Of a stretch of DNA of 64,000 bases, positions 1,990-35,107 are shown in pieces (position 1 is the stretch's first letter; each line of letters begins with the position of its first letter). The stretch lies in assembly GCF_048403405.1 (NCBI RefSeq), contig NZ_CP183129.1; one strand, written 5' to 3'. The position numbers were made by a program, and so were the translations under genes. Source of the DNA: Escherichia coli. GTDB taxonomy: Bacteria > Pseudomonadota > Gammaproteobacteria > Enterobacterales > Enterobacteriaceae. The notes beneath the pieces were generated by a model. That model was given only the letters and a program-made list of their open reading frames with translations. It was not told where the DNA came from and did not search any database.

Positions 1990-2070
1990 CTTTCTCCTGT
2001 TCTTTGTGCTGATTGAGCATTTTGTTCATCTGACGAATGAATTCTTCGTCTGACCAGTTATCTGTAAAAC

Positions 2071-2241
2071 TCATGGACGGCCTTGTTGTTTCAAAATATC
2101 CCAAAGCTTTTCGAGCAAACTTTTCATTCTTGGTTGTTTAAAGTCTGCTCCGGTTAAAATGTTTTTTCGTGAATGCTGCACCGATAAAATTGGGTTGAAA
2201 GGGCGAACCGATGCCGCCCCTGCAATAGCGAACTGTTGCAT
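2071..2241 (-). CDS. cIII: cIII-like small protein (56 aa; not in ORF track because under 60 aa)
   Basis: Minus-strand ORF MQQFAIAGAASVRPF...SLLEKLWDILKQQGRP with GGAG SD 8 nt upstream; resembles lambda cIII (MQYAIAG...LIDILNQPGVP, from memory); correct position downstream of N. Confidence 0.5.
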   Translation of the reverse strand: MQQFAIAGAASVRPFNPILSVQHSRKNILTGADFKQPRMKSLLEKLWDILKQQGRP

Positions 2242-7164: not shown

Positions 7165-9045
7165 ATGACACCAAGTGAACTTAGCGACCTGCTTTGGGCG
7201 CAGGTTGACAGGGTGGCTCCGCACCTGTTGCCAAACGGCAAGAAAGAGGGGCATGAGTGGGTTGCCGGTAACGTCAACGGTGACAAGGGAAACAGCCTTA
7301 AGGTCAACCTTAGCGGCAAGAAAAAATGGGCTGATTTCGCTGAGGGAGACGGCGGTGACATGCTTGATTTGTGGATGGCATGTCGTGGAATTAACCTGCA
7401 TCAGGCTATGCAGGAAGCGAAAGCCTTTCTCGGAATCAAGGATGACGATCACCATTTCGATGCCAAACGTGAGAAGAAATTCTCCAGACCTGATCGCAAG
7501 AAAATCGCCCGCTACGTTACCAGAACAGAATCCCATCTTGAGTACCTGCAATCGCGTGGCATATCGCCAGAAATCGTAAAGCGCTACGAGGTTGTCAGCG
7601 GCAAGGTGTGGAATGGAGAGCTGGAACTGGATGCTCTGGTGATTCCGTACAAACGCGATGGTGAGTTGTTGCAGGTCAAGCGAATCAGCACTGAGCGCCC
7701 GGACGGGAAGAAAGTCATTATGGCAGAAGGTGATTGCGAACCTTGTCTGTTCGGATGGCAGGCTCTGGACGCTGGCGTGAGGGCGGTTGTACTTTGCGAA
7801 GGCGAAATTGATTGTATGAGCTATGCGCAATACGGCATCTCGGCGTTATCCGTGCCGTTTGGTGGCGGGAAAGGCGCTAAACAGCAGTGGATTGAGTTTG
7901 AGTATCACAACCTCGACAGGTTTGAGGAAATATTCATCTCGATGGACGTTGATGATGTTGGTCGTGAAGCCGCAAGGGAAATCGCAAGCCGACTCGGTGA
8001 ACATCGTTGCCGTCTTGTTACTCTGCCGTACAAAGACATCAACGAATGCCTGATGAACGGTGTTACCGAGGATGAAATCTGGCAGTACATCGGCACGGCA
8101 TCCTACTTCGACCCTGAAGAACTCTACAGCGCGCGAGAGTTTTACCAGGACACTATCAACGCTTTCTACGGCAAGCAGCAGTATCTGTTTAATCCACCGT
8201 GGGAATCTCTGGTAGATAAATTCCAGTTCCGTGAGGCCGAGTTGACGCTGGTCAATGGTGTGAACGGTCACGGAAAAACGGAGGTTGTCGGGCATATGGC
8301 TCTTGAGGCAATGCGTCAGGGTGTGAAGACGTGCATCGCGTCACTTGAGCTGAAGCCTGGTATTCTCCTTAAGCGCCTTACCCGTCAGGCGACGTGCTGC
8401 AAGATGCCGCCAGTGCTGGAAATTGACTCTGCATTTAAATTTTATGACGAAAGACTTTGGGTGTTTGGCCTGACCGGAACGGCGAAAGCCGACAGGCTGA
8501 TCGAAATATTCGACTACGCTCGCCGCCGATACGGGATCCAGTTATTCATCATCGACAGCCTGATGAAATGTGGCATAGGCGACGATGACTATAACGGGCA
8601 GAAGGCGTTTGTTGACTCGATTTGCGACTTCAAAAACAAAACAAACTCCCACGTCATTCTCGTTACTCACTCGCGAAAAGGAGACAGCGAAGAAAAACCA
8701 ACCGGGAAAATGGACGTAAAAGGCTCTGGAGCGATAACAGACCTGACAGACAACCTTTTCATCATCTGGCGTAACAAGGCTCGCGAGAGAGCGTTACAGA
8801 GAGTTCAGAGTGGTGAAAAGATGTCAGAGAAGGACGAACAGCTACTGGCATCTCCGGCATCTGTTTTGATGCTTGAAAAACAACGTAACGGCGAAGGTTG
8901 GGAAGGTGGTGTCCCGTTGTTCCTTGACGAGCAATCGCACCAGTTCCTGCAACTTGAATCAGGATCGCCATATAGCTACATCGCCAATATGCCGAAATCG
9001 GAATATGACGAGGCGTGGAGACAGGAAAACGTGACGGAGTATTAA
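7165..9045 (+). CDS. Bifunctional DNA primase/helicase (T7 gp4-like; 626 aa) in place of lambda P
   Basis: Central acidic TOPRIM-like block (VVLCEGEIDCMSYAQ...ISMDVDDVGREAA) followed by Walker A GVNGHGKT and a RecA/DnaB-like C-terminal half; follows the O-like gene. Confidence 0.7.
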   Translation: MTPSELSDLLWAQVDRVAPHLLPNGKKEGHEWVAGNVNGDKGNSLKVNLSGKKKWADFAEGDGGDMLDLWMACRGINLHQAMQEAKAFLGIKDDDHHFDAKREKKFSRPDRKKIARYVTRTESHLEYLQSRGISPEIVKRYEVVSGKVWNGELELDALVIPYKRDGELLQVKRISTERPDGKKVIMAEGDCEPCLFGWQALDAGVRAVVLCEGEIDCMSYAQYGISALSVPFGGGKGAKQQWIEFEYHNLDRFEEIFISMDVDDVGREAAREIASRLGEHRCRLVTLPYKDINECLMNGVTEDEIWQYIGTASYFDPEELYSAREFYQDTINAFYGKQQYLFNPPWESLVDKFQFREAELTLVNGVNGHGKTEVVGHMALEAMRQGVKTCIASLELKPGILLKRLTRQATCCKMPPVLEIDSAFKFYDERLWVFGLTGTAKADRLIEIFDYARRRYGIQLFIIDSLMKCGIGDDDYNGQKAFVDSICDFKNKTNSHVILVTHSRKGDSEEKPTGKMDVKGSGAITDLTDNLFIIWRNKARERALQRVQSGEKMSEKDEQLLASPASVLMLEKQRNGEGWEGGVPLFLDEQSHQFLQLESGSPYSYIANMPKSEYDEAWRQENVTEY

Positions 9046-11891: not shown

Positions 11892-12076
11892 ACGCCACAA
11901 TTCAAACGATACCAGAGCTTCTTATCCAGACACGAGGCAATCAGACCGAAGTGGCAAGGATGCTTTCCTGCGCAAGAGGAACAGTGCTCAAGTACAACCG
12001 AGACAGCAAAGGCGAGCGTCACGTAATAGTTAACGGCGTCCTGATGGTCAAACAGGGCAAAAGGGGAAGGCCATGA
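11888..12076 (+). CDS. ninH: NinH-like protein (62 aa)
   Basis: GNQTEVARMLSCARGTVLKY...VNGVLMV resembles lambda NinH (GNQTEVARRLKCSRGTVRKY...VNDVLMV). Confidence 0.55.
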   Translation: MNATIQTIPELLIQTRGNQTEVARMLSCARGTVLKYNRDSKGERHVIVNGVLMVKQGKRGRP

Positions 12077-12696
12077 GACTCGAAAGCGTAGCTAAATTTC
12101 ATTCGCCAAAAAGCCCGATGATGAGCGACTCACCACGGGCTACGGCTTCTGACTCTCTTTCCGGTACTGATGTGATGGCTGCTATGGGGATGGCGCAATC
12201 ACAAGCCGGATTCGGAATGGCTGCATTCTGCGGTAAGCATGAACTCAGCCAGAACGACAAACAAAAGGCTATCAACTATCTGATGCAATTTGCACACAAG
12301 GTATCGGGGAAATACCGTGGCGTTGCAAAACTTGAAGGAAATACTAAGGCAAAGGTACTGCAAGTGCTCGCAACATTCGCTTATGCGGATTATTGCCGTA
12401 GTGCCGCGACGCCGGGCGCAAGATGCAGAGATTGCCACGGTACAGGCCGTGCGGTTGATATTGCCAAAACAGAGCAGTGGGGGAGAGTTGTCGAAAAAGA
12501 GTGCGGAAGATGCAAAGGCGTCGGCTATTCCAGGATGCCAGCAAGCGCCGCATATCGCGCTGTAACGATGCTAATCCCAAACCTTACCCAACCCACCTGG
12601 TCACGCACTGTTAAGCCGCTGTATGACGCTCTGGTGGTGCAATGCCACAAGGAAGAGTCAATCGCAGACAATATTTTGAATGCGGTCACACGTTAG
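12073..12696 (+). CDS. Q: Late antiterminator Q (lambda-type, 207 aa)
   Basis: Sequence MRLESVAKFHSPKSPMMSDSPRATASDSLSG...NILNAVTR equals lambda Q (from memory). Confidence 0.95.
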   Translation: MRLESVAKFHSPKSPMMSDSPRATASDSLSGTDVMAAMGMAQSQAGFGMAAFCGKHELSQNDKQKAINYLMQFAHKVSGKYRGVAKLEGNTKAKVLQVLATFAYADYCRSAATPGARCRDCHGTGRAVDIAKTEQWGRVVEKECGRCKGVGYSRMPASAAYRAVTMLIPNLTQPTWSRTVKPLYDALVVQCHKEESIADNILNAVTR

Positions 12697-12738: not shown

Positions 12739-12767
12739 TTGACTTTTTGAATAAAGTTGGGTAAATT
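12739..12767 (+). promoter_or_regulatory. Late promoter pR' (-35 TTGACT, 17-bp spacer, -10 TAAATT) with qut region
   Basis: TTGACTTTTTGAATAAAGTTGGGTAAATTTGACCC, near-identical to lambda pR'. Confidence 0.65.
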
Positions 12768-12908
12768 TGACCCAACGATGGGTTAATTCGCTCGTTGTGG
12801 TAGTGAGATAAAAAGAGGCGGCGCTTACTACCGATTCCGCCTAGTTGGTCACTTCGACGTATCGTCTGGAACTCCAACCATCGCAGGCTGAGAGGTCTGC
12901 AAAATGCA

Positions 12909-12968
12909 ATCCCGAAACAGTTAGCAGGTAATAGTTAGAGCCTGCATAACGGTTTCGGGATTTTTTAT
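12909..12968 (+). terminator. tR'-like terminator (end of the short 6S-type late leader transcript)
   Basis: Long stem AATCCCGAAAC...GTTTCGGGA followed by TTTTTTATTT, as in lambda tR'. Confidence 0.6.
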
Positions 12969-12970
12969 TT

Positions 12971-13045
12971 GGGTCAGTCGTATAAAGGTCATTACGGAAG
13001 GCTGTTAACCTTCTTATCGTGGTTCGAGTCCACGCTGTCCCGCCA
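12971..13045 (+). tRNA. tRNA-like gene, anticodon GUU (Asn) by manual fold; one T:T mismatch in the acceptor stem
   Basis: Manual cloverleaf: acceptor GGGTCAG/CTGTCCC, anticodon stem GAAGG/CCTTC with loop CTGTTAA, T-arm CGTGG-TTCGAGT-CCACG, discriminator G, encoded CCA. Confidence 0.45.
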
Positions 13046-13050
13046 AATAT

Positions 13051-13126
13051 GCTGGTTTAGCTCCAATGGTAGAGCAGTCGCCTTGTAAGCGAATGGGTAG
13101 CGGTTCAAGTCCGTTAACCAGCACCA
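13051..13126 (+). tRNA. tRNA-like gene, anticodon UGU (Thr) by manual fold
   Basis: Acceptor GCTGGTT/AACCAGC (perfect), D-arm GCTC-CAATGGTA-GAGC, anticodon loop CTTGTAA, T-loop TTCAAGT, encoded CCA. Confidence 0.55.
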
Positions 13127-13369
13127 TAACTGAGCCGTAGCCACTGGCTATCCTGAATTCATCAGTGATAGTTACGCTGCGGCCTTCTACACATGACCTT
13201 CGTGAAAGCGGTGGCAGGAGGTCGCGCTAATAACCTCCTGCCGTTTTGCCCGTGCATATCGGTCACGAACAAATCTGATTACTAAACACAGTAGCCTGGA
13301 TTTGTTCTATCAGTAATCGACCTTATTCCTAATTAAATAGAGCAAATCCCCTCAATGAAGGGGTAGAGC

Positions 13370-13573
13370 ATGTACCGTATGGACAAAATCAGAGAATGGT
13401 TCAGTTACAGCTTCGGAGGACTGACTGCGATGGGTGGCATTCTCTCCCTGAATGACTGGGCTGTCATCATTGGTATTCTTTGTACTGTCGGCACATTTGG
13501 CATCAACTGGTACTACAAGCGCAAAGAGCGCGAGGACAGATTGAATGGCAATGTCACCGGCACTACGAAATAG
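13370..13573 (+). CDS. Putative holin (67 aa) with dual start (M1-Y-R-M4)
   Basis: Two hydrophobic helices ([25 protein letters not shown]), charged C-terminus; upstream hairpin CCCCTCAATGAAGGGG before the tandem ATGs; overlaps the endolysin start. Confidence 0.6.
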
Positions 13574-14048
13574 CGTAATAGCGGCGATAAGTGGCGGGGC
13601 TATTGCTATAGCATCTGTGTTAATCACTGGACCAAGTGGTAACGATGGTCTGGAAGGTGTTAGCTACATACCATACAAAGATATTGTTGGTGTATGGACT
13701 GTATGTCACGGACACACCGGAAAAGACATCATGCTCGGTAAAACGTATACCAAAGCAGAATGCAAAGCCCTCCTGAATAAAGACCTTGCCACGGTCGCCA
13801 GACAAATTAACCCGTACATCAAAGTCGATATACCGGAAACAATGCGCGGCGCTCTTTACTCATTCGTTTACAACGTGGGTGCTGGCAATTTCAGAACATC
13901 GACGCTTCTTCGCAAAATAAACCAGGGCGATATCAAAGGCGCATGTGATCAGCTACGTCGCTGGACATATGCTGGCGGTAAGCAATGGAAAGGTCTCATG
14001 ACTCGTCGTGAGATTGAGCGTGAAGTCTGTTTGTGGGGGAAACAATGA
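13545..14048 (+). CDS. SAR-type endolysin (phage-21 R-like lysozyme, 167 aa)
   Basis: N-terminal signal-anchor-release helix [17 protein letters not shown] followed by a lysozyme core ([25 protein letters not shown]...), recalled as matching phage 21 R / DLP12 RrrD. Confidence 0.85.
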
Positions 14049-14512
14049 GCAGAGTAACCGCGATTATCTCCGCTCTGGTTATCTGCATCATCGTCTGCCT
14101 GTCATGGGCTGTTAATCATTACCGTGATAACGCCATGACCTACAAAGAGCAGCGCGATAAAAAAGTCAGTGAGCTGAAGCAGGCGACCGCCACCATTACT
14201 GACATGCAGCAACGCCATCGTGCTGCTGATGCACTCGATGCTAAATACACGAAGGAGTTAGCTGATGCGAAAGCTGAAAATGATGCTCTTCGGCGCAAGC
14301 TTGATAATGGTGGCAGGGTGCTCGTCAAAGGAAAATGCCCTGTGCCATCCTCAGCCGAAACCTCCGGCGCCTCCGGCATGGGCAATGATGCCACCGTCGA
14401 ACTCTCTCCAGTTGCTGGACGAAACGTTCTCGGTGTCCGGGACGGAATTATCCGCGACCAAACAGCACTGAGAACGCTTCAGGAATACATCAGGACGCAA
14501 TGCCTTCGATGA
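14045..14512 (+). CDS. Rz: Rz i-spanin (155 aa from MSRV; ORF track lists 14033)
   Basis: [30 protein letters not shown]...[16 protein letters not shown] matches lambda Rz N-terminal two thirds. Confidence 0.85.
14265..14471 (+). CDS. Rz1: Rz1 o-spanin lipoprotein embedded in +1 frame within Rz (68 aa)
   Basis: [21 protein letters not shown]... has a lipobox (VAGC) and a proline-rich tract ([11 protein letters not shown]), like lambda Rz1. Confidence 0.75.
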
Positions 14513-14685
14513 TAGCGATAATTTTACTCATCATCCTTCACATCTGGCTCTGTAGACAGGGTGGTGCTCACTTCTGGAGTAAATCCAGATTAAACATCTC
14601 ATTGCTGATGCTTGATATTGAGCATCTGGCGCGCAGTAAGGGGCTGCGTTGAGATAAGAGCCAGTTCATTACAAATACCAGGATT

Positions 14686-14712
14686 TAGCCTCGCATTCGC
14701 GGGGCTTTTTAT
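14686..14712 (+). terminator. Hairpin plus T-run after the lysis cassette
   Basis: AGCCTCGCattcGCGGGGCT followed by TTTTAT. Confidence 0.4.
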
Positions 14713-14854
14713 ATCTGAATTTCACAGCGCATCTCACGCGCATATTAACGAGAGCCTTTCAGTAAGCGAGCCTGAGAAATGCCGTTATAGGTGGCGACCT
14801 CTCTCGGGCGGCTTTTCTGTGAGACAGGCTCACTTTCTAAAAGGTAAAGACGCT

Positions 14855-15340
14855 ATGAATAACTTTGTTGAAATTACCTCAAGAATTGGTCGCATGTACC
14901 AAGATTTTCTTATAAGTGGAAAGGGGTCTGGCGACATCATAGAGGAAATTGACAAGCTAAGTGCAGAGCTGAGAAGGAATGGGTGTGTTAATTCTATCTT
15001 TTTTGAAACTTTGCTAAAGCAAGGCTTCATGTTTGACATGATTAATTACAACAAAGTCGCACCCAGTGCTTCGCAAAAATCATATGTGTACGTTCTGCAT
15101 GCTGAAGATAGTGGGCTAACAAAAATAGGGTTTAGTCGCAGGGTTAATAAACGAATTTCAGAGATATCTCGCATGAGTGGCGGGAAGCTAAATCTAATTG
15201 CAAAGATTCCGGCCGATAGAGAGCTTGAAACCAAATTGCACCAAAAATATTACAACTATAGGTCGCACGGGGAGTGGTTTAGTCTCAATCGTTGTCATTT
15301 GAAAGAGCTAAAAGAAATGCCTGGTAACGAACTGAAATAA
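14855..15340 (+). CDS. Moron protein (161 aa) with C-terminal GIY-YIG-like (T5orf172-type) domain
   Basis: Start chosen at ATG 14855 (AAAGG SD); the ORF-track extension from 14612 looks non-coding. Motif KSYVYVLHAEDSGLTKIGFSRRVNKRISE...GEWF fits a GIY-YIG/T5orf172 core; gene is AT-richer than its surroundings. Confidence 0.55.
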   Translation: MNNFVEITSRIGRMYQDFLISGKGSGDIIEEIDKLSAELRRNGCVNSIFFETLLKQGFMFDMINYNKVAPSASQKSYVYVLHAEDSGLTKIGFSRRVNKRISEISRMSGGKLNLIAKIPADRELETKLHQKYYNYRSHGEWFSLNRCHLKELKEMPGNELK

Positions 15341-29633: not shown

Positions 29634-30038
29634 CTATTTAATTCTCTTTTCAATGGCTGCAATTATTGCTTTTCCTGATGTTTCAGGAGATTTTGTAGCC
29701 ATATAAGACGAAAAAATCATGTCGGTCATTCTTTCATAACTTACTATTTCCCACTTAGCCAATGCATGGGACAGTTTGTAGTTGTCATCAGTTAGTGCCC
29801 TTATGGAATTTTTTAAGTGTTTATTCTCTTCTGTTAATCGCGCAATTTTTGTATCAATTTCATGTGAGCGATCTAATTCCTTAACCTGTTTCTTGAGGGC
29901 AGCTAACCCTGCATATAGTACGCAACAGGATATCCCAAGAGCGAGTACAACTATTTCTAACACACCAACCTCCTTAGTTTTGAGCAGGATACCAGATGAT
30001 AATGTGTAGTTGGAGTAGCGCGGTTGTAATGCAAGCAT
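29634..30038 (-). CDS. Membrane-anchored coiled-coil protein (134 aa from ATG 30038; alternative GTG start at 29963 with AAGGAGG SD gives 110 aa)
   Basis: One TM helix (LEIVVLALGISCCVLYAGLAAL) followed by heptad-rich coiled coil; divergent from the 30120 gene; AT-rich. Confidence 0.5.
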   Translation of the reverse strand: MLALQPRYSNYTLSSGILLKTKEVGVLEIVVLALGISCCVLYAGLAALKKQVKELDRSHEIDTKIARLTEENKHLKNSIRALTDDNYKLSHALAKWEIVSYERMTDMIFSSYMATKSPETSGKAIIAAIEKRIK

Positions 30039-30117
30039 TTTGTTTTAGCTTTATGCTTGCTTGTATGTGTGTACAGTGTATATAATGCAAGCATACATCA
30101 CAACAAAGGTGCTTGCA
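30030..30117. promoter_or_regulatory. Divergent promoter region with four 8-bp half-sites TGCAAGCA/TGCTTGCA in two inverted pairs around TTGCTT-N18-TATAAT
   Basis: Sites at 30030..30037, 30053..30060, 30085..30093 and 30110..30117; -10 TATAAT at 30081..30086; the last site overlaps the SD/ATG of the 30120 gene. Confidence 0.5.
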
Positions 30118-30119
30118 TT

Positions 30120-31088
30120 ATGACTGAAAAGAAAAGTGGCGAAGGGAAAGCTAAGGGCGGGATCGCTCGCGCAAAGTCGCTGACTAAAGAGCAGCGTTCT
30201 GAAATAGCAAAGAAAGCAGCTGCTGCAAGATGGAAAAGTAAGATTCTCAGGGCAACTCATCGTGGTAACTTTTTAGATGATTTTGGCATTGATGCTGAAT
30301 GTTATGTACTGGATGACGAGTCGAAAACTGTCGTTGTTACGAAAACTGGATTATCTCAGTTGCTAGGGATTGGTGAACATGCCAGGGATTTAGATCAACT
30401 GCTTGGCGCTCAGTATATGAGCAAATACCGAGATCTAGAATTGCAGCGAAAAATGGAAAATCCCTATAAATTTCAACTTACTTCGAAGTCTAAAACCGTT
30501 CATCAAGCGTTAGGTTATGACATTACAGCAATTGTTGATATTGGTAGGGCACTAATAGAAGCCAAAGATAATGACGATCTACCACAATCACGGTTAAAGG
30601 CAGCCGCCGCAGCACAGAGACTTATTAATGCCTCCGCTAAGGCGGGAATTAAGGGGGTTGCGTATGCGCTTGCTGGTTATCGTCCAGAAGTTCAGGCTGT
30701 CATTGACGAGTTCAAAGCGTTTGTTCGTGAAGAGGCTCGTCAATATGAAAAGGAATTTCCAGATGAGCTATACGAGGAGTGGTATCGACTGTACGGCCTG
30801 AATAGGCCAGAGAAAGGACGGCCTATTCGTTTTGGGCAGCTAACCAACATGCAGATATACACCCCGCTAGCAAAGAGTAAAGGTAAAATCCTTGAACAAA
30901 TTAGAGCCAGCCGAGACGAGAACGGAAAACAATCTGATAAGTTGCATCTGTTCCTTTCTGAAATTGGTGTCAAGGCTTTGCGTCAGCATATCGGTAAGCT
31001 TCTTGGTGTCGCAGCGATGAGTGAGACAAGAGAAGAATACGAAAAAGGAATAGAAAAGGTTTTCGGAAGAATGAAACCAGAAATCTAA
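30120..31088 (+). CDS. Unknown moron protein (322 aa) with basic Lys/Ala-rich N-terminus
   Basis: Start at the internal ATG 30120 of the ORF-track entry 30057..31088; N-terminus MTEKKSGEGKAKGGIARAKSLTKEQRSEIAKKAAAARW suggests nucleic-acid binding; followed by a strong terminator. Confidence 0.6.
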   Translation: MTEKKSGEGKAKGGIARAKSLTKEQRSEIAKKAAAARWKSKILRATHRGNFLDDFGIDAECYVLDDESKTVVVTKTGLSQLLGIGEHARDLDQLLGAQYMSKYRDLELQRKMENPYKFQLTSKSKTVHQALGYDITAIVDIGRALIEAKDNDDLPQSRLKAAAAAQRLINASAKAGIKGVAYALAGYRPEVQAVIDEFKAFVREEARQYEKEFPDELYEEWYRLYGLNRPEKGRPIRFGQLTNMQIYTPLAKSKGKILEQIRASRDENGKQSDKLHLFLSEIGVKALRQHIGKLLGVAAMSETREEYEKGIEKVFGRMKPEI

Positions 31089-31092
31089 TTAT

Positions 31093-31118
31093 GAAACCCA
31101 CCGTCAGGTGGGTTTTTT
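31093..31118 (+). terminator. Rho-independent terminator
   Basis: AAACCCACCgtcaGGTGGGTTTTTTGT immediately after the 30120..31088 stop. Confidence 0.55.
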
Positions 31119-31355
31119 GTACAAATCCTTCAGCGTATCAAACACCATCTTCTTAACAAGTTCAGACTGCTCATCAGCGATGCGTTCCGCATCGTCTCGA
31201 TAGCCTGAAATTTTGGATGGCTTTGATACAGCATCAGTCACTATCTGAACTAATTCTGAATTAAGAGAGCGGCCATTGGATTTGGCTCGCTGTTTTAGTT
31301 TTTCCTTTAATTCGTAAGGTAGCCGCAGATTAAATTGCGGGTCATCTCTTCCCAT
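31104..31355 (-). CDS. mnt: Mnt repressor (Arc/MetJ-family ribbon-helix-helix, 83 aa)
   Basis: MGRDDPQFNLRLPYELKEKLKQRAKSNGRSLNSELVQIVTDAVSKPS...DAERIADEQSELVKKMVFDTLKDLYKK closely matches P22 Mnt (from memory). Confidence 0.85.
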   Translation of the reverse strand: MGRDDPQFNLRLPYELKEKLKQRAKSNGRSLNSELVQIVTDAVSKPSKISGYRDDAERIADEQSELVKKMVFDTLKDLYKKPT

Positions 31356-33713: not shown

Positions 33714-34907
33714 TCACTCCACCTTTTCATCAAGCCAGTCCGCCCACCACTGCATCATTTCTCTGCGCTTATCGAGATACTGAGCATGGTTGTAAATTCC
33801 ACGTACAGATCCGCCGTTGGCATGTGCCAGTTGCACTTCAATGGCGTCGGCAGGCCATTCGTGCTCGTTCATAATCGTGCTGAATTCATGCCTGAATCCG
33901 TGACCGCTTTCCAGACCTTCATAGCCGATTTGTTTGATCACAAGTAGCACCGCGTTCTCGCAGATTGGCTTCTTCTTATCGTTGCGCCCGGAAAAAACAA
34001 ACTCTGATACTGGTTTAGTGATTGAGCTTAGTGTAGTGAGAAGTTCAACCACCTGGTCTGACATCGGGACAACATGAATTTTGCGTCCCTTCATCACACT
34101 GGCGTCGATGGTGATAATCCTGTTTTCAAAATCGACGTTCTTCCATAGCATGGAACGAAGCTCTTTTGTTCTTAGGGCTGTGTAGCGTAAAACTTTGGTC
34201 GCAATGAGCGATACGATACTTCCTGAAAATGTTGCAAGTGCTTTGTTGAATGCCGAGATCTGGTCGGCAGGTAAAAACGGGAAGTTCTTCTTGCGGTATC
34301 CCTTCATGGCGTCAGCAAGGTCAGGTGCCGGGTTATATTTAGCCCTACCAGTGACAATAGCGTAACGGAAAACCTCGCCGCATCTTCTGCGGGCTTTGTT
34401 GGCTCGCTCCATTGCACCGCGATCTTCAAATCTGCGGATTACTTCCAGCAGTTGCATCGGCTCAATATCCTGAATTTCAAGGCCGCCGATGATAGGTAAA
34501 ATGTCGTCATCAAACATTTTTGCAAGTTCAGTTGCATAGCCTACTGACCAGACTTGCTTCTTGTGCTCGTACCATTCCTTGTAAATCGCACTAAAGGAAT
34601 TGTTGTTAGACGAAGCCTTTTTCGCTTTTACCGGATCGATGCCAACCGAGATGTCTTTCCTCGCGGTCCATGCCTTATCCCTTGCCTCCTGCAAAGTCAT
34701 AAGCGGATATTTTCCGACGGTCAGGATTTTCTCCTTACCGTCAATCTTGTAGCGAAGCTGCCATACCTTTTTCCCTGATACAGGGACATAAAGGTACAGG
34801 CCATTACCATCGAGTAGGCGGTATGGTTTTTCTTTCGGCTTTGCTGCTTCAATCTGCTTAACGGTGAGCATGGGTAAAAATCCGGTGGGTAAAATTATTT
34901 TATCCAC
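33714..34907 (-). CDS. intS: Tyrosine integrase, P4-family (IntS-like; 397 aa, or 385 aa from MLTVKQ at 34871)
   Basis: N-terminus MLTVKQIEAAKPKEKPYRLLDGNGLYLYV typical of P4/IntS-type integrases; C-terminal HxxR...Y catalytic region; adjacent to the tRNA-Arg 3' end and transcribed away from it. Confidence 0.9.
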   Translation of the reverse strand: MDKIILPTGFLPMLTVKQIEAAKPKEKPYRLLDGNGLYLYVPVSGKKVWQLRYKIDGKEKILTVGKYPLMTLQEARDKAWTARKDISVGIDPVKAKKASSNNNSFSAIYKEWYEHKKQVWSVGYATELAKMFDDDILPIIGGLEIQDIEPMQLLEVIRRFEDRGAMERANKARRRCGEVFRYAIVTGRAKYNPAPDLADAMKGYRKKNFPFLPADQISAFNKALATFSGSIVSLIATKVLRYTALRTKELRSMLWKNVDFENRIITIDASVMKGRKIHVVPMSDQVVELLTTLSSITKPVSEFVFSGRNDKKKPICENAVLLVIKQIGYEGLESGHGFRHEFSTIMNEHEWPADAIEVQLAHANGGSVRGIYNHAQYLDKRREMMQWWADWLDEKVE

Positions 34908-35032
34908 TTTTTACCCGTCATGGAGTGCGGCTGTCAACGATCTGACGCGAACCATTACGAACTGTTAATCTACGGAAGGCTTGATATTCAGGGGATTTTG
35001 CGGACTGGTGCGGATGGGAGCGAACTGATAAA

Positions 35033-35107
35033 TGGTGTCCCCTGCAGGAATCGAACCTGCAATTAGCCCTTAGGAGGAGCTCGTTATATCCATTTAACTA
35101 AGAGGAC
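35033..35107 (-). tRNA. argW: tRNA-Arg (anticodon CCU), argW; prophage attachment site
   Basis: Reverse complement reads GTCCTCTTAGTTAAATGGATATAACGAGCTCCTCCTAAGGGCTAATTGCAGGTTCGATTCCTGCAGGGGACACCA (75 nt, CCT anticodon loop, TTCGATT T-loop, CCA end). Confidence 0.85.

What the first reader, a model, noticed from the sequence alone, without database searches (positions are those of the whole stretch)
12971..13126. Two tandem tRNA-like genes inserted into the lambda-type late leader between tR' and the lysis genes
Flanking sequence matches the lambda pR'/tR' region and the lambda S-upstream leader as I recall them, but the interval in between is replaced by two ~75-nt elements that fold manually into cloverleaves with encoded CCA ends (anticodons GUU and UGU). 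The first has a T:T mismatch in the acceptor stem. Phage tRNA islands at this position are known in other lambdoid phages; whether these two are functional, and which isoacceptors they supply, is open.
Basis: partly seen in the sequence, partly recalled or inferred. Interest (0 to 1): 0.45.

Follow-up and report, generated by a model that had tools for sequence, protein, structure and literature searches.

The report
Known lambdoid phage tRNA-Asn/tRNA-Thr pair
Two real tRNA genes (Asn-GUU and Thr-UGU) sit in the late-gene leader of a P22-like prophage; the cassette is already described and annotated, and this exact tRNA-Thr has been shown experimentally to help phages survive a tRNA-cutting defence (P2 Old), so the finding is correct but ordinary.

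Summary
ARAGORN and Rfam both call tRNA-Asn(GUU) at 12971-13045 and tRNA-Thr(UGU) at 13051-13126 (55 and 61 bits; threshold 29). Both have encoded CCA ends, and the first has a U4·U69 mismatch. They lie 3 nt after a lambda-type tR' and replace about 160 bp of lambda's late leader.

It is not new. Both tRNAs are 100% identical to those of phage 21, Sf6 and HK446. The pair is annotated in GenBank and RefSeq, occurs in 346 of 5,426 complete E. coli genomes, and is described in the SfI paper, which cites the phage 21, Sf6 and ST64T/PS3 reports for tRNAs at this position.

Covariation across variants supports both cloverleaves, and the odd mismatches are conserved features.

On function, two recent papers show that this exact tRNA-Thr (from phage 21 and from HK446) resists the P2 Old tRNase and restores ACA decoding. 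Both Old and PARIS AriB also cut the host tRNA-Asn(GUU). The phage tRNA-Asn lacks the cleavage motifs of both nucleases, but nobody has tested it. ACA codons are enriched in the phage genes (29% vs 18.5% of Thr codons); Asn codons show no bias.

Verdict: already known, low interest. The only open point is the role of the tRNA-Asn partner.

The parts
12073..12696 (+). Late antiterminator Q, lambda type (207 aa)
   Evidence: ORF; PHROG 127 'anti-termination protein Q-like', E = 7e-83; annotated 'antitermination protein Q' in the closest genome and in Kapi1.
12739..12767 (+). pR' late promoter (TTGACT-17 nt-TAAATT)
   Evidence: Consensus scan. The region is nearly identical to lambda's pR' region and is annotated as a pR'-like promoter in HK446.
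12908..12969 (+). tR' terminator of the short late leader RNA: hairpin AATCCCGAAAC...GTTTCGGGATT followed by a T-run
   Evidence: Read directly from the sequence. It matches lambda's at all but one position (window A12923 vs lambda C) up to the T-run. The simple terminator scan did not flag it because of its long loop. Its identity as tR' rests on homology with lambda and on established knowledge of lambda.
12971..13045 (+). tRNA-Asn, anticodon GUU, 75 nt. Discriminator G73, encoded CCA, U4·U69 and U13·U22 mismatches, 4-nt variable loop
   Evidence: ARAGORN; Rfam 55.3 bits; cloverleaf MFE fold; 100% identical to phage 21, Sf6, phage L and JLK-2012 copies; 6 base pairs with compensatory double changes across 16 variants.
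13046..13050 (+). 5-nt spacer AATAT between the two tRNAs
   Evidence: Sequence. This spacer holds the only difference from phage 21 and Sf6, which have AACAT.
13051..13126 (+). tRNA-Thr, anticodon UGU, 76 nt. G1-C72, C2-G71, discriminator A73, encoded CCA. The anticodon stem is shortened by a G27·A43 mismatch. C14 replaces the usual A14
   Evidence: ARAGORN; Rfam 61.5 bits; cloverleaf MFE fold; 100% identical to the phage 21, Sf6 and HK446 tRNA-Thr; 4 pairs with compensatory changes across 23 variants, with G27·A43 unpaired in 23/23.
13127..13369 (+). Lambda-type late leader upstream of the holin, including the strong hairpin GGCAGGAGG...CCTCCTGCC followed by TTTT at about 13212-13248
   Evidence: About 97% identical to lambda from 'AACTGAGCC' onward; hairpin fold.
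13370..13573 (+). First late protein gene: holin (67 aa), not lambda S
   Evidence: ORF; PHROG 20 holin, E = 3.5e-25. Homology with lambda ends at the ribosome-binding region.

Best explanation
These are two functional phage tRNA genes, Asn(GUU) and Thr(UGU). They form the well-known lambdoid 'late-leader' tRNA cassette of phage 21, Sf6, SfI and HK446. They lie 3 nt downstream of tR', so they should be transcribed from pR' mainly when Q lets RNA polymerase read through tR', that is, together with the late mRNAs (inferred from position). The host RNase P and 3' trimming enzymes would then cut them out; CCA is encoded (inferred). Their main benefit is to keep late translation going when the corresponding host tRNAs are destroyed by Toprim-family tRNases carried by competing prophages and satellites. 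For tRNA-Thr this has been shown for the identical sequence: it resists P2 Old and replaces the cleaved host tRNA-ThrU in decoding ACA. For tRNA-Asn it is inferred. Host tRNA-Asn(GUU) is a secondary substrate of both P2 Old and PARIS AriB. The phage copy lacks both CNG cleavage motifs and the U39 that AriB needs. A secondary benefit is extra decoding capacity for ACA, which is over-represented in the phage genes.
For: Real tRNAs. Selection for structure: compensatory changes in 6 pairs (Asn) and 4 pairs (Thr), with 0/500 shuffles reaching the observed covariation score and all slid controls far lower. Identity elements are present (from established knowledge of E. coli AsnRS and ThrRS): Asn has G34 U35 U36 and G73; Thr has G1-C72, C2-G71, G35 U36 and A73. 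Identity to tested molecules: the pair is 100% identical to HK446 over 166 nt, and both tRNAs are 100% identical to phage 21 and Sf6. Published experiments: the phage 21 tRNA-Thr protects against P2-OLD toxicity and resists cleavage. Its described features (shorter anticodon stem, C28U/G42A) match the window sequence: G27·A43, U28-A42 (PMC12445682). The HK446 tRNA-Thr(UGU) restores plaquing of Old-sensitive phages to near wild type (10.64898/2026.07.10.737580). [quoted passage not shown] Window Asn has nt 28-30 = AAG and 40-42 = CUU, where the host has CGG and CCG. Positions 36-41 read UAACCU, where the host has UAAUCC. The AriB-resistant T5 tRNAs also lack U39. Related arrays add Gly(UCC) and Met(CAU), and Gly(UCC) and fMet(CAU) are reported as preferred Old targets. 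ACA makes up 29.4% of Thr codons in phage ORFs against 18.5% in the host flank (Fisher p = 5e-5). This agrees with the SfI paper.
Against: Nothing was measured on this prophage: no expression, charging or defence data. The tRNA-Asn has never been tested against any nuclease. Four of 16 distinct Asn variants (Klebsiella-type) carry CAG/CUG, which restores a paired CNG motif. The window Asn has a fully paired anticodon stem, unlike the resistant Thr. The cassette lacks tRNA-Lys(UUU), which is required to escape PARIS, so it cannot on its own defeat that system. A single resistant tRNA does not fully relieve Old toxicity. HK446 also carries a protein inhibitor (Oad2), and its authors suggest the tRNA may serve another purpose. 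The phage tRNAs are only about 62-70% identical to the host's, so differences at any given nuclease determinant are partly expected by chance. tRNA-Thr has C14 instead of the near-universal A14.
Confidence: 0.75

Rival explanations
1. Codon-usage supplementation is the main function. The phage supplies tRNAs for codons it uses more than the host does, speeding late protein synthesis with no link to defence.
For: ACA is significantly enriched in the phage ORFs: 29.4% vs 18.5% of Thr codons, and 16.4 vs 11.1 per 1000 codons. The SfI paper reports the same bias, 17.3% vs 7.1%. tRNA-ThrU is the only ACA reader in E. coli K-12.
Against: There is no bias for Asn codons: AAU/AAC are 50/50 in the phage and 49/51 in the host (p = 0.78), and total Asn use is similar. 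The SfI authors also found none. This does not explain why the anticodon arm of tRNA-Thr, including a destabilising G27·A43 mismatch, is kept in 23/23 variants while the acceptor stem drifts with compensation. Over-expressing the host's own tRNA-ThrU does not rescue Old-challenged cells, whereas the phage version does.
Confidence: 0.3
2. The tRNAs compensate for a host tRNA gene damaged by prophage integration, as suggested for HK446 in the 2026 preprint.
For: HK446 and SfI integrate into thrW, a tRNA-Thr gene. The preprint authors raise this idea.
Against: thrW encodes the CGU isoacceptor (established knowledge of E. coli K-12), not UGU, and this idea does not explain the Asn gene. The window prophage sits next to a tRNA-Arg(CCU) gene that is still called as intact by ARAGORN and Rfam (59.7 bits), yet it carries the identical Asn/Thr pair. 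The cassette is the same whatever the integration site. Its position behind tR' also implies low expression in the lysogen (inference).
Confidence: 0.03
3. The elements are decaying relics or pseudogenes, or tRNA-like structures that serve only as RNA-processing or stability signals in the late leader.
For: Non-canonical features: U4·U69 and U13·U22 in Asn; G27·A43 and C14 in Thr. At the same site in other phages the second element has degenerated. Phage L has a 72-nt element that ARAGORN rejects, and JLK-2012 has a chimeric Thr. RNase P cleavage would necessarily cut the late transcript's leader (inference).
Against: High covariance-model scores. Compensatory substitutions maintain all four helices, and the 'defects' are themselves conserved. 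The identical tRNA-Thr functionally decodes ACA in vivo, and anticodon mutants lose the rescue. The pair is conserved at 97-100% identity in 346 E. coli genomes.
Confidence: 0.05

Closest known systems
Late-leader tRNA-Asn(GUU)/tRNA-Thr(UGU) cassette of lambdoid phages 21, Sf6, SfI and HK446 (also Kapi1, mEp506, Bas106 and Salmonella phages S107 and SPN9CC)
   Same: Both tRNAs are 100% identical to phage 21, Sf6 and HK446. The order (Asn then Thr), the 5-nt spacing, and the position immediately after tR' and upstream of the holin are all the same. The downstream lambda-type leader is also the same. Databases annotate the pair as tRNA-Asn and tRNA-Thr.
   Different: One base in the inter-tRNA spacer differs from phage 21 and Sf6. 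Here the cassette follows a lambda-type Q/pR'/tR', as in HK446 and Kapi1, rather than the 21-type found in phage 21 and Sf6. It is followed by a non-lambda holin in a P22-like virion background.
Nuclease-resistant phage tRNA-Thr(UGU) that counters P2 Old ('tRNAThr21'; HK446, T4, Bas32 and Bas33 tRNA-Thr)
   Same: The window tRNA-Thr has the same sequence as the phage 21 and HK446 molecules that were tested. It shows the published resistance features: an anticodon stem shortened by one pair and an altered CNG motif (U28-A42 instead of C28-G42).
   Different: No experiment exists for this prophage. The tested tRNAs were expressed from plasmids, not from the late leader.
[quoted passage not shown]
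   Same: The window cassette covers two of the three anticodons. Like the T5 variants, both window tRNAs lack U39 in the AriB recognition sequence U36-A-A-U-C|N41, and both have A rather than U at position 16.
   Different: No tRNA-Lys(UUU) is present, and T5 tRNA-Lys is required for PARIS escape. The sequences are not homologous in any close sense to the T5 tRNAs. Nothing has been tested.
tRNA genes downstream of Q in Stx phages (ileZ-argN-argO type; an 'ileX' tRNA next to stx2)
   Same: The genomic logic is the same: tRNA genes in the Q-dependent late leader of a lambdoid prophage (reference cited; the rest from general knowledge).
   Different: Those are different tRNAs (Ile and Arg rare-codon readers), classically explained by codon usage of stx and virulence genes. 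They are unrelated in sequence to this cassette.

Membership tests
Bacterial-type elongator tRNA (Rfam RF00005) | Covariance-model score above the curated gathering threshold over the full model | tested here: met
   55.3 bits (Asn) and 61.5 bits (Thr) against a gathering score of 29, model positions 1-71/71. ARAGORN calls both.
Bacterial-type elongator tRNA (Rfam RF00005) | Four-helix cloverleaf maintained by compensatory substitutions among relatives | tested here: met
   Asn: 6 pairs with changes on both sides and 89.9% of cells paired, against 34-53% in slid controls. Thr: 4 pairs and 94.4%, against 21-47%. In both, 0/500 shuffles reach the observed covariation score.
Bacterial-type elongator tRNA (Rfam RF00005) | Conserved tertiary and loop nucleotides: U8, A14, G18-G19, A21, U33, G53, T54-Psi55-C56, A58, C61 | tested here: inconclusive
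   All are present in tRNA-Asn. tRNA-Thr has every one except A14, which is C14 (T in one variant), and this is conserved across the family. The identical tRNA nevertheless works in vivo according to PMC12445682 and the 2026 preprint.
tRNA-Asn (E. coli AsnRS substrate) | Anticodon G34-U35-U36 and discriminator G73 (established identity set) | tested here: met
   Anticodon loop CUGUUAA; base 73 is G, followed by CCA. Aminoacylation itself cannot be tested with these tools.
tRNA-Thr (E. coli ThrRS substrate), UGU isoacceptor | G1-C72, C2-G71, G35-U36 (established identity set); anticodon UGU | tested here: met
   The sequence begins GC and ends GC-A-CCA; the loop is CUUGUAA. G1-C72 and C2-G71 are each kept in 22/23 variants.
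Lambdoid late-leader tRNA-Asn/Thr cassette (phage 21 / Sf6 / SfI / HK446) | Sequence identity of both tRNAs to the described cassette | tested here: met
   100% identity to HK446 and Bas106 over 166 nt. 99.4% to phage 21, Sf6 and SfI; for phage 21 and Sf6 the single difference was checked and lies in the spacer.
Lambdoid late-leader tRNA-Asn/Thr cassette (phage 21 / Sf6 / SfI / HK446) | Location between Q/pR'/tR' and the holin gene, same strand as the late operon | tested here: met
   Q at 12073-12696, pR' at 12739-12767, tR' T-run ending at 12969, tRNAs at 12971-13126, holin at 13370. The Sf6, Kapi1 and phage L annotations show the same layout.
Anti-defence phage tRNA (cleavage-resistant replacement for a host tRNA targeted by a tRNase) | The host counterpart is a demonstrated target of a defence tRNase | tested here: met
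Anti-defence phage tRNA (cleavage-resistant replacement for a host tRNA targeted by a tRNase) | The phage tRNA resists cleavage and rescues translation or infection | not testable with these tools
   For tRNA-Thr, others have shown this on identical sequences from phage 21 and HK446. For tRNA-Asn there is only sequence inference: both CNG motifs lost and C39 instead of U39.

The most novel reading that the evidence does not exclude
The tRNA-Asn(GUU) partner has been overlooked: it is unannotated in the HK446 record, and the 2026 Old study describes HK446 as encoding 'a single' resistant tRNA. It may be a second, purpose-built nuclease-resistant tRNA. Its conserved peculiarities would then be adaptations that let it escape Toprim tRNases (P2 Old, PARIS AriB or relatives) while still being charged by AsnRS. 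Those peculiarities are loss of both CNG motifs, C39 in place of U39, A16, and a U4·U69 acceptor mismatch kept while neighbouring pairs covary. On this reading the Asn+Thr pair, not Thr alone, is the natural unit that decides whether a lambdoid phage can grow on P2 lysogens or on hosts carrying similar satellites.
Probability: 0.4. Interest if true: 0.4.

Novelty: already known. Interest (0 to 1): 0.15.

Why it matters
For this window it matters little. The finding correctly identifies a textbook-style 'moron' cassette that annotation pipelines already call and that the literature has described. The useful context is recent. The same tRNA-Thr sequence is now known to be a counter-defence against the P2 Old tRNase, the classic P2-lambda interference. 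About 6% of complete E. coli genomes therefore carry a prophage-borne, Old-resistant ACA decoder. The only loose end with some value is the untested tRNA-Asn partner, whose host counterpart is cut by both Old and PARIS.

Tried and rejected
(1) Is lambda's 160-bp segment at the same place a decayed tRNA pair? No. ARAGORN finds nothing and Rfam at E <= 1 finds no tRNA-like match in lambda, IME10, E212 or Dewey.

(2) Were the tRNAs recently captured from E. coli? No. They are only about 62% (Asn vs asnT) and 70% (Thr vs thrU) identical.

(3) Do they compensate for the integration-site tRNA? Rejected. The prophage abuts an intact tRNA-Arg(CCU), and the same pair occurs in thrW-integrating phages.

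(4) Does the window also carry the HK446 anti-Old protein Oad2, or Abc2, Erf or gp31? tblastn found none in the part of the early-left region inside the window. The only match was 21 aa to the N-terminus of gp33. The left prophage end lies outside the window, so absence is not established.

(5) PADLOC and NCBIfam scans of unannotated ORFs near the cassette and in the moron slots gave nothing usable.

(6) The 1991 phage 21 paper (PMC207295) and the supplement of PMC12445682, which holds the tRNAThr21 drawing, are not held. Identity to 'tRNAThr21' therefore rests on the phage 21 GenBank record AJ237660 plus the features described in the main text.

(7) The simple terminator scan did not flag tR' because of its long loop. 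tR' is assigned by near-identity to lambda.

Full report
OBSERVATION. ARAGORN run on the whole window returns three tRNAs. Two of them match the finding exactly: tRNA-Asn (gtt) at 12971-13045 and tRNA-Thr (tgt) at 13051-13126, both on the + strand. Rfam's tRNA model (RF00005) matches both over its full length, at 55.3 and 61.5 bits against a gathering score of 29. Each folds into a cloverleaf as its minimum-free-energy structure. Both carry an encoded CCA.

CONTEXT. The window holds a P22-like (Lederbergvirus-type) prophage. Reading left to right it has:
- RecT, repressor and Cro;
- a primase/helicase;
- nin genes, an HNH endonuclease and RusA;
- a lambda-type Q of 207 aa (12073-12696);
- the tRNA pair;
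- a non-lambda holin, an RrrD-type endolysin and Rz;
- terminase, portal, P22-type coat, ejection proteins and tailspike;
- an integrase (33714-34907, - strand) next to a tRNA-Arg(CCU) gene at 35033-35107.

Upstream of the tRNAs the sequence is almost identical to lambda's pR' (TTGACT-17-TAAATT at 12739-12767) and tR'. The T-run of tR' ends at 12969, 2 nt before tRNA-Asn begins. Downstream, from 'AACTGAGCC' (~13128), it is again about 97% identical to lambda's leader up to the S ribosome-binding site. The interval between is about 158 bp here and about 162 bp in lambda, and the two are unrelated. This is an equal-length substitution, not a simple insertion. Lambda's segment contains no tRNA or recognisable relic.

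The same cassette follows a different (phage-21-type) Q/tR' in phage 21 and Sf6. There the homology starts in the terminator's T-run and continues into the same lambda-type leader. So it behaves as a mosaic module placed exactly at the end of tR'.

IT IS ALREADY KNOWN.
- A 166-nt query spanning the pair is 100% identical to phages HK446 and Bas106, and 99.4% identical to phage 21, Sf6 and SfI.
- Direct comparison shows both tRNAs are 100% identical to those of phage 21 and Sf6. The only difference is one base in the 5-nt spacer.
- GenBank and RefSeq annotate them as tRNA-Asn and tRNA-Thr in Sf6 ('similar to phage 21'), Kapi1, mEp506, SfI and many E. coli chromosomes.
- The pair is present in 346 of 5,426 complete E. 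coli genomes. Of these genomes, 79 share the lambda-type flanks seen here.
[quoted passage not shown] It cites the 1991 phage 21 late-region paper among others (PMC3636060).

ARE THEY FUNCTIONAL? Three lines of evidence bear on this.

(i) Identity elements. The elements known for the E. coli synthetases are present. Asn has the GUU anticodon and G73. Thr has G1-C72, C2-G71, G35-U36 and A73 (the identity sets come from established knowledge).

(ii) Variants and covariation.
- Of the 117 arrays ARAGORN called, 96 were Asn+Thr. Others also carried Phe(GAA), Arg(UCU) or Met(CAU). Phage JLK-2012 adds Gly(UCC).
- Across 16 distinct Asn variants, 6 base pairs show changes on both sides. Across 23 distinct Thr variants, 4 do.
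- 90-94% of cells are paired, against 21-53% when partners are slid. No shuffle out of 500 reaches the observed covariation score.
- The 'defects' are conserved. U4·U69 in Asn stays unpaired in 14/16 variants while pairs 5:68, 6:67 and 7:66 covary. G27·A43 in Thr stays unpaired in 23/23 variants while the acceptor stem covaries. That pattern is the opposite of decay.

(iii) Published experiments on the identical tRNA-Thr.
- PMC12445682 shows that P2 Old kills by cutting host tRNA-ThrU(UGU) at paired CNG motifs (nt 28-30 and 40-42) in the anticodon stem.
- The same paper shows that the phage 21 tRNA-Thr(UGU) protects cells and resists cleavage. It attributes this to a shorter anticodon stem and altered pairs (C28U/G42A). 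The window tRNA has exactly these features.
- A 2026 preprint shows that the HK446 tRNA-Thr(UGU) restores plaque formation of Old-sensitive phages to near wild-type levels, whereas E. coli tRNA-Thr(UGU) does not.

One oddity remains. tRNA-Thr has C14 where A14 is nearly universal, and this is conserved in the family.

WHAT THE PAIR DOES. The best-supported mechanism has shown and inferred steps.
- Expression (inferred from position): the genes lie behind tR', so they should be transcribed mainly from pR' under Q antitermination, together with the late mRNAs, and then processed by host enzymes.
- tRNA-Thr (shown for the identical sequence): it replaces host tRNA-ThrU, the only ACA reader, when Old destroys it.
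- tRNA-Asn (inferred): both P2 Old (slower than ThrU) and PARIS AriB ('secondary, yet biologically relevant') cleave host tRNA-Asn(GUU). AriB recognises U36-A-A-U-C|N41, with U39 critical, and U16 contributes.
- Window Asn reads UAACCU with A16. It has AAG and CUU where the host has the CNG motifs CGG and CCG. Window Thr reads UAAGCG with A16. The T5 Lys, Thr and Asn tRNAs that neutralise PARIS likewise lack U39.

Several caveats apply.
- The phage tRNAs are only 62-70% identical to the host's, so some of these differences are expected by chance.
- Four of 16 distinct Asn variants restore a paired CNG motif.
- The cassette lacks tRNA-Lys(UUU), which PARIS escape requires.
- A single resistant tRNA gives only partial relief from Old.

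CODON USAGE. In ORFs of the prophage, ACA accounts for 29.4% of Thr codons, against 18.5% in the host genes of the same window (p = 5e-5). AAU/AAC usage does not differ (p = 0.78). The SfI authors found the same. Codon supplementation is therefore a plausible secondary benefit for Thr, but it explains neither the Asn gene nor the conserved odd anticodon arm.

REJECTED ALTERNATIVES.
- Compensation for a tRNA gene damaged by integration. This is contradicted here: the neighbouring tRNA-Arg(CCU) is intact and of a different specificity, and the same pair occurs in thrW-integrating phages.
- Pseudogenes or relics. This is contradicted by the scores, the covariation and the published function.

VERDICT. 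However, this is a known, annotated cassette, and the function of its tRNA-Thr has been demonstrated experimentally. Novelty: already known. Interest: low. The residual open question is the untested tRNA-Asn partner. The HK446 record leaves it unannotated, and the 2026 Old study does not mention it, speaking of 'a single' resistant tRNA.

Noticed in passing
window 13064 (position 14 of tRNA-Thr): The D-loop reads CAAUGGUA, so the near-universal A14 (partner of U8) is a C. This is conserved in 22 of 23 distinct family variants; one variant has T. The identical tRNA is functional in published assays. The Levitt pair is A15-U48 instead of the host's G15-C48.
   Followed up: partly
L007 887-962 (phage JLK-2012): The tRNA-Thr here looks like a chimera. 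Its 5' half is identical to the phage type, and its 3' half resembles E. coli thrU. It has two mismatches (27:43 and 28:42) in the anticodon stem. ARAGORN rejects it, but Rfam gives 49 bits. A tRNA-Gly(UCC) follows it, and Gly(UCC) is reported as a preferred Old target.
   Followed up: partly
L006 887-958 (Salmonella phage L; also PS3/ST64T type): The second element of the cassette is a 72-nt tRNA-like sequence annotated 'tRNA-Leu (TAA)'. It keeps a Thr-like acceptor stem but has a different anticodon arm. ARAGORN does not call it; Rfam gives 42 bits. The tRNA-Asn next to it is 100% conserved.
   Followed up: partly
L011 569-1060 (E. coli JNE131328): In one E. coli prophage an HNH endonuclease ORF (about 490 bp, within a roughly 680-bp insertion) lies between tR' and the tRNA-Asn. 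This recalls the homing endonucleases interspersed in the T5 and T4 tRNA regions.
   Followed up: no
L135 35091-35256 (HK446, NC_019714.1): The HK446 record annotates no tRNA between pR' and the holin, although it holds a pair 100% identical to the window's. [quoted passage not shown]
   Followed up: yes
window 33714-35107: An integrase (397 aa, - strand) lies directly beside a tRNA-Arg(CCU) gene (35033-35107, - strand, 59.7 bits). This is probably the argW-type attachment site at the right prophage end. The integrase sits next to the tailspike, as in KplE1/Sf6-type prophages. The left prophage end lies beyond the start of the window.
   Followed up: partly
window 13340-14512: Homology with lambda stops at the S ribosome-binding region. 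The lysis genes are a 67-aa PHROG-20 holin, an RrrD-type endolysin with a hydrophobic N-terminus (possibly a signal-anchor-release, SAR, type) and Rz with an embedded Rz1-like ORF. So there is a mosaic junction only about 240 bp downstream of the tRNA cassette.
   Followed up: partly
window 14612-15340: An ORF between the lysis genes and the terminase belongs to PHROG 4284 (unknown function). It has weak matches to an endonuclease PHROG (E = 4e-6) and to PADLOC candidate PDC-S57 (E = 9e-4). It may be a nuclease-type moron.
   Followed up: partly
window 29634-31355: Three ORFs lie between the ejection proteins and the tailspike, the slot that holds immI/sieA in P22: 134 aa (-), 343 aa (+) and 83 aa (-). 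They match only PHROGs of unknown function (8100, 2384). PADLOC gives nothing, and NCBIfam gives only one far sub-threshold match for the 83-aa ORF.
   Followed up: partly
window 2012-2074 (- strand): A 21-aa stretch is 76% identical to the N-terminus of HK446 gp33, which the 2026 preprint identifies as a trigger of P2 Old. No Oad2, Abc2 or Erf homologue was found in the part of the early-left region inside the window.
   Followed up: partly
window 7165-9045: The replication module is a fused primase/helicase (626 aa, PHROG 239). The closest E. coli prophage with the same late region (NZ_CM185151) has an O-like initiator plus a DnaB-like helicase instead. This shows that the late-leader cassette travels independently of the replication module.
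   Followed up: no
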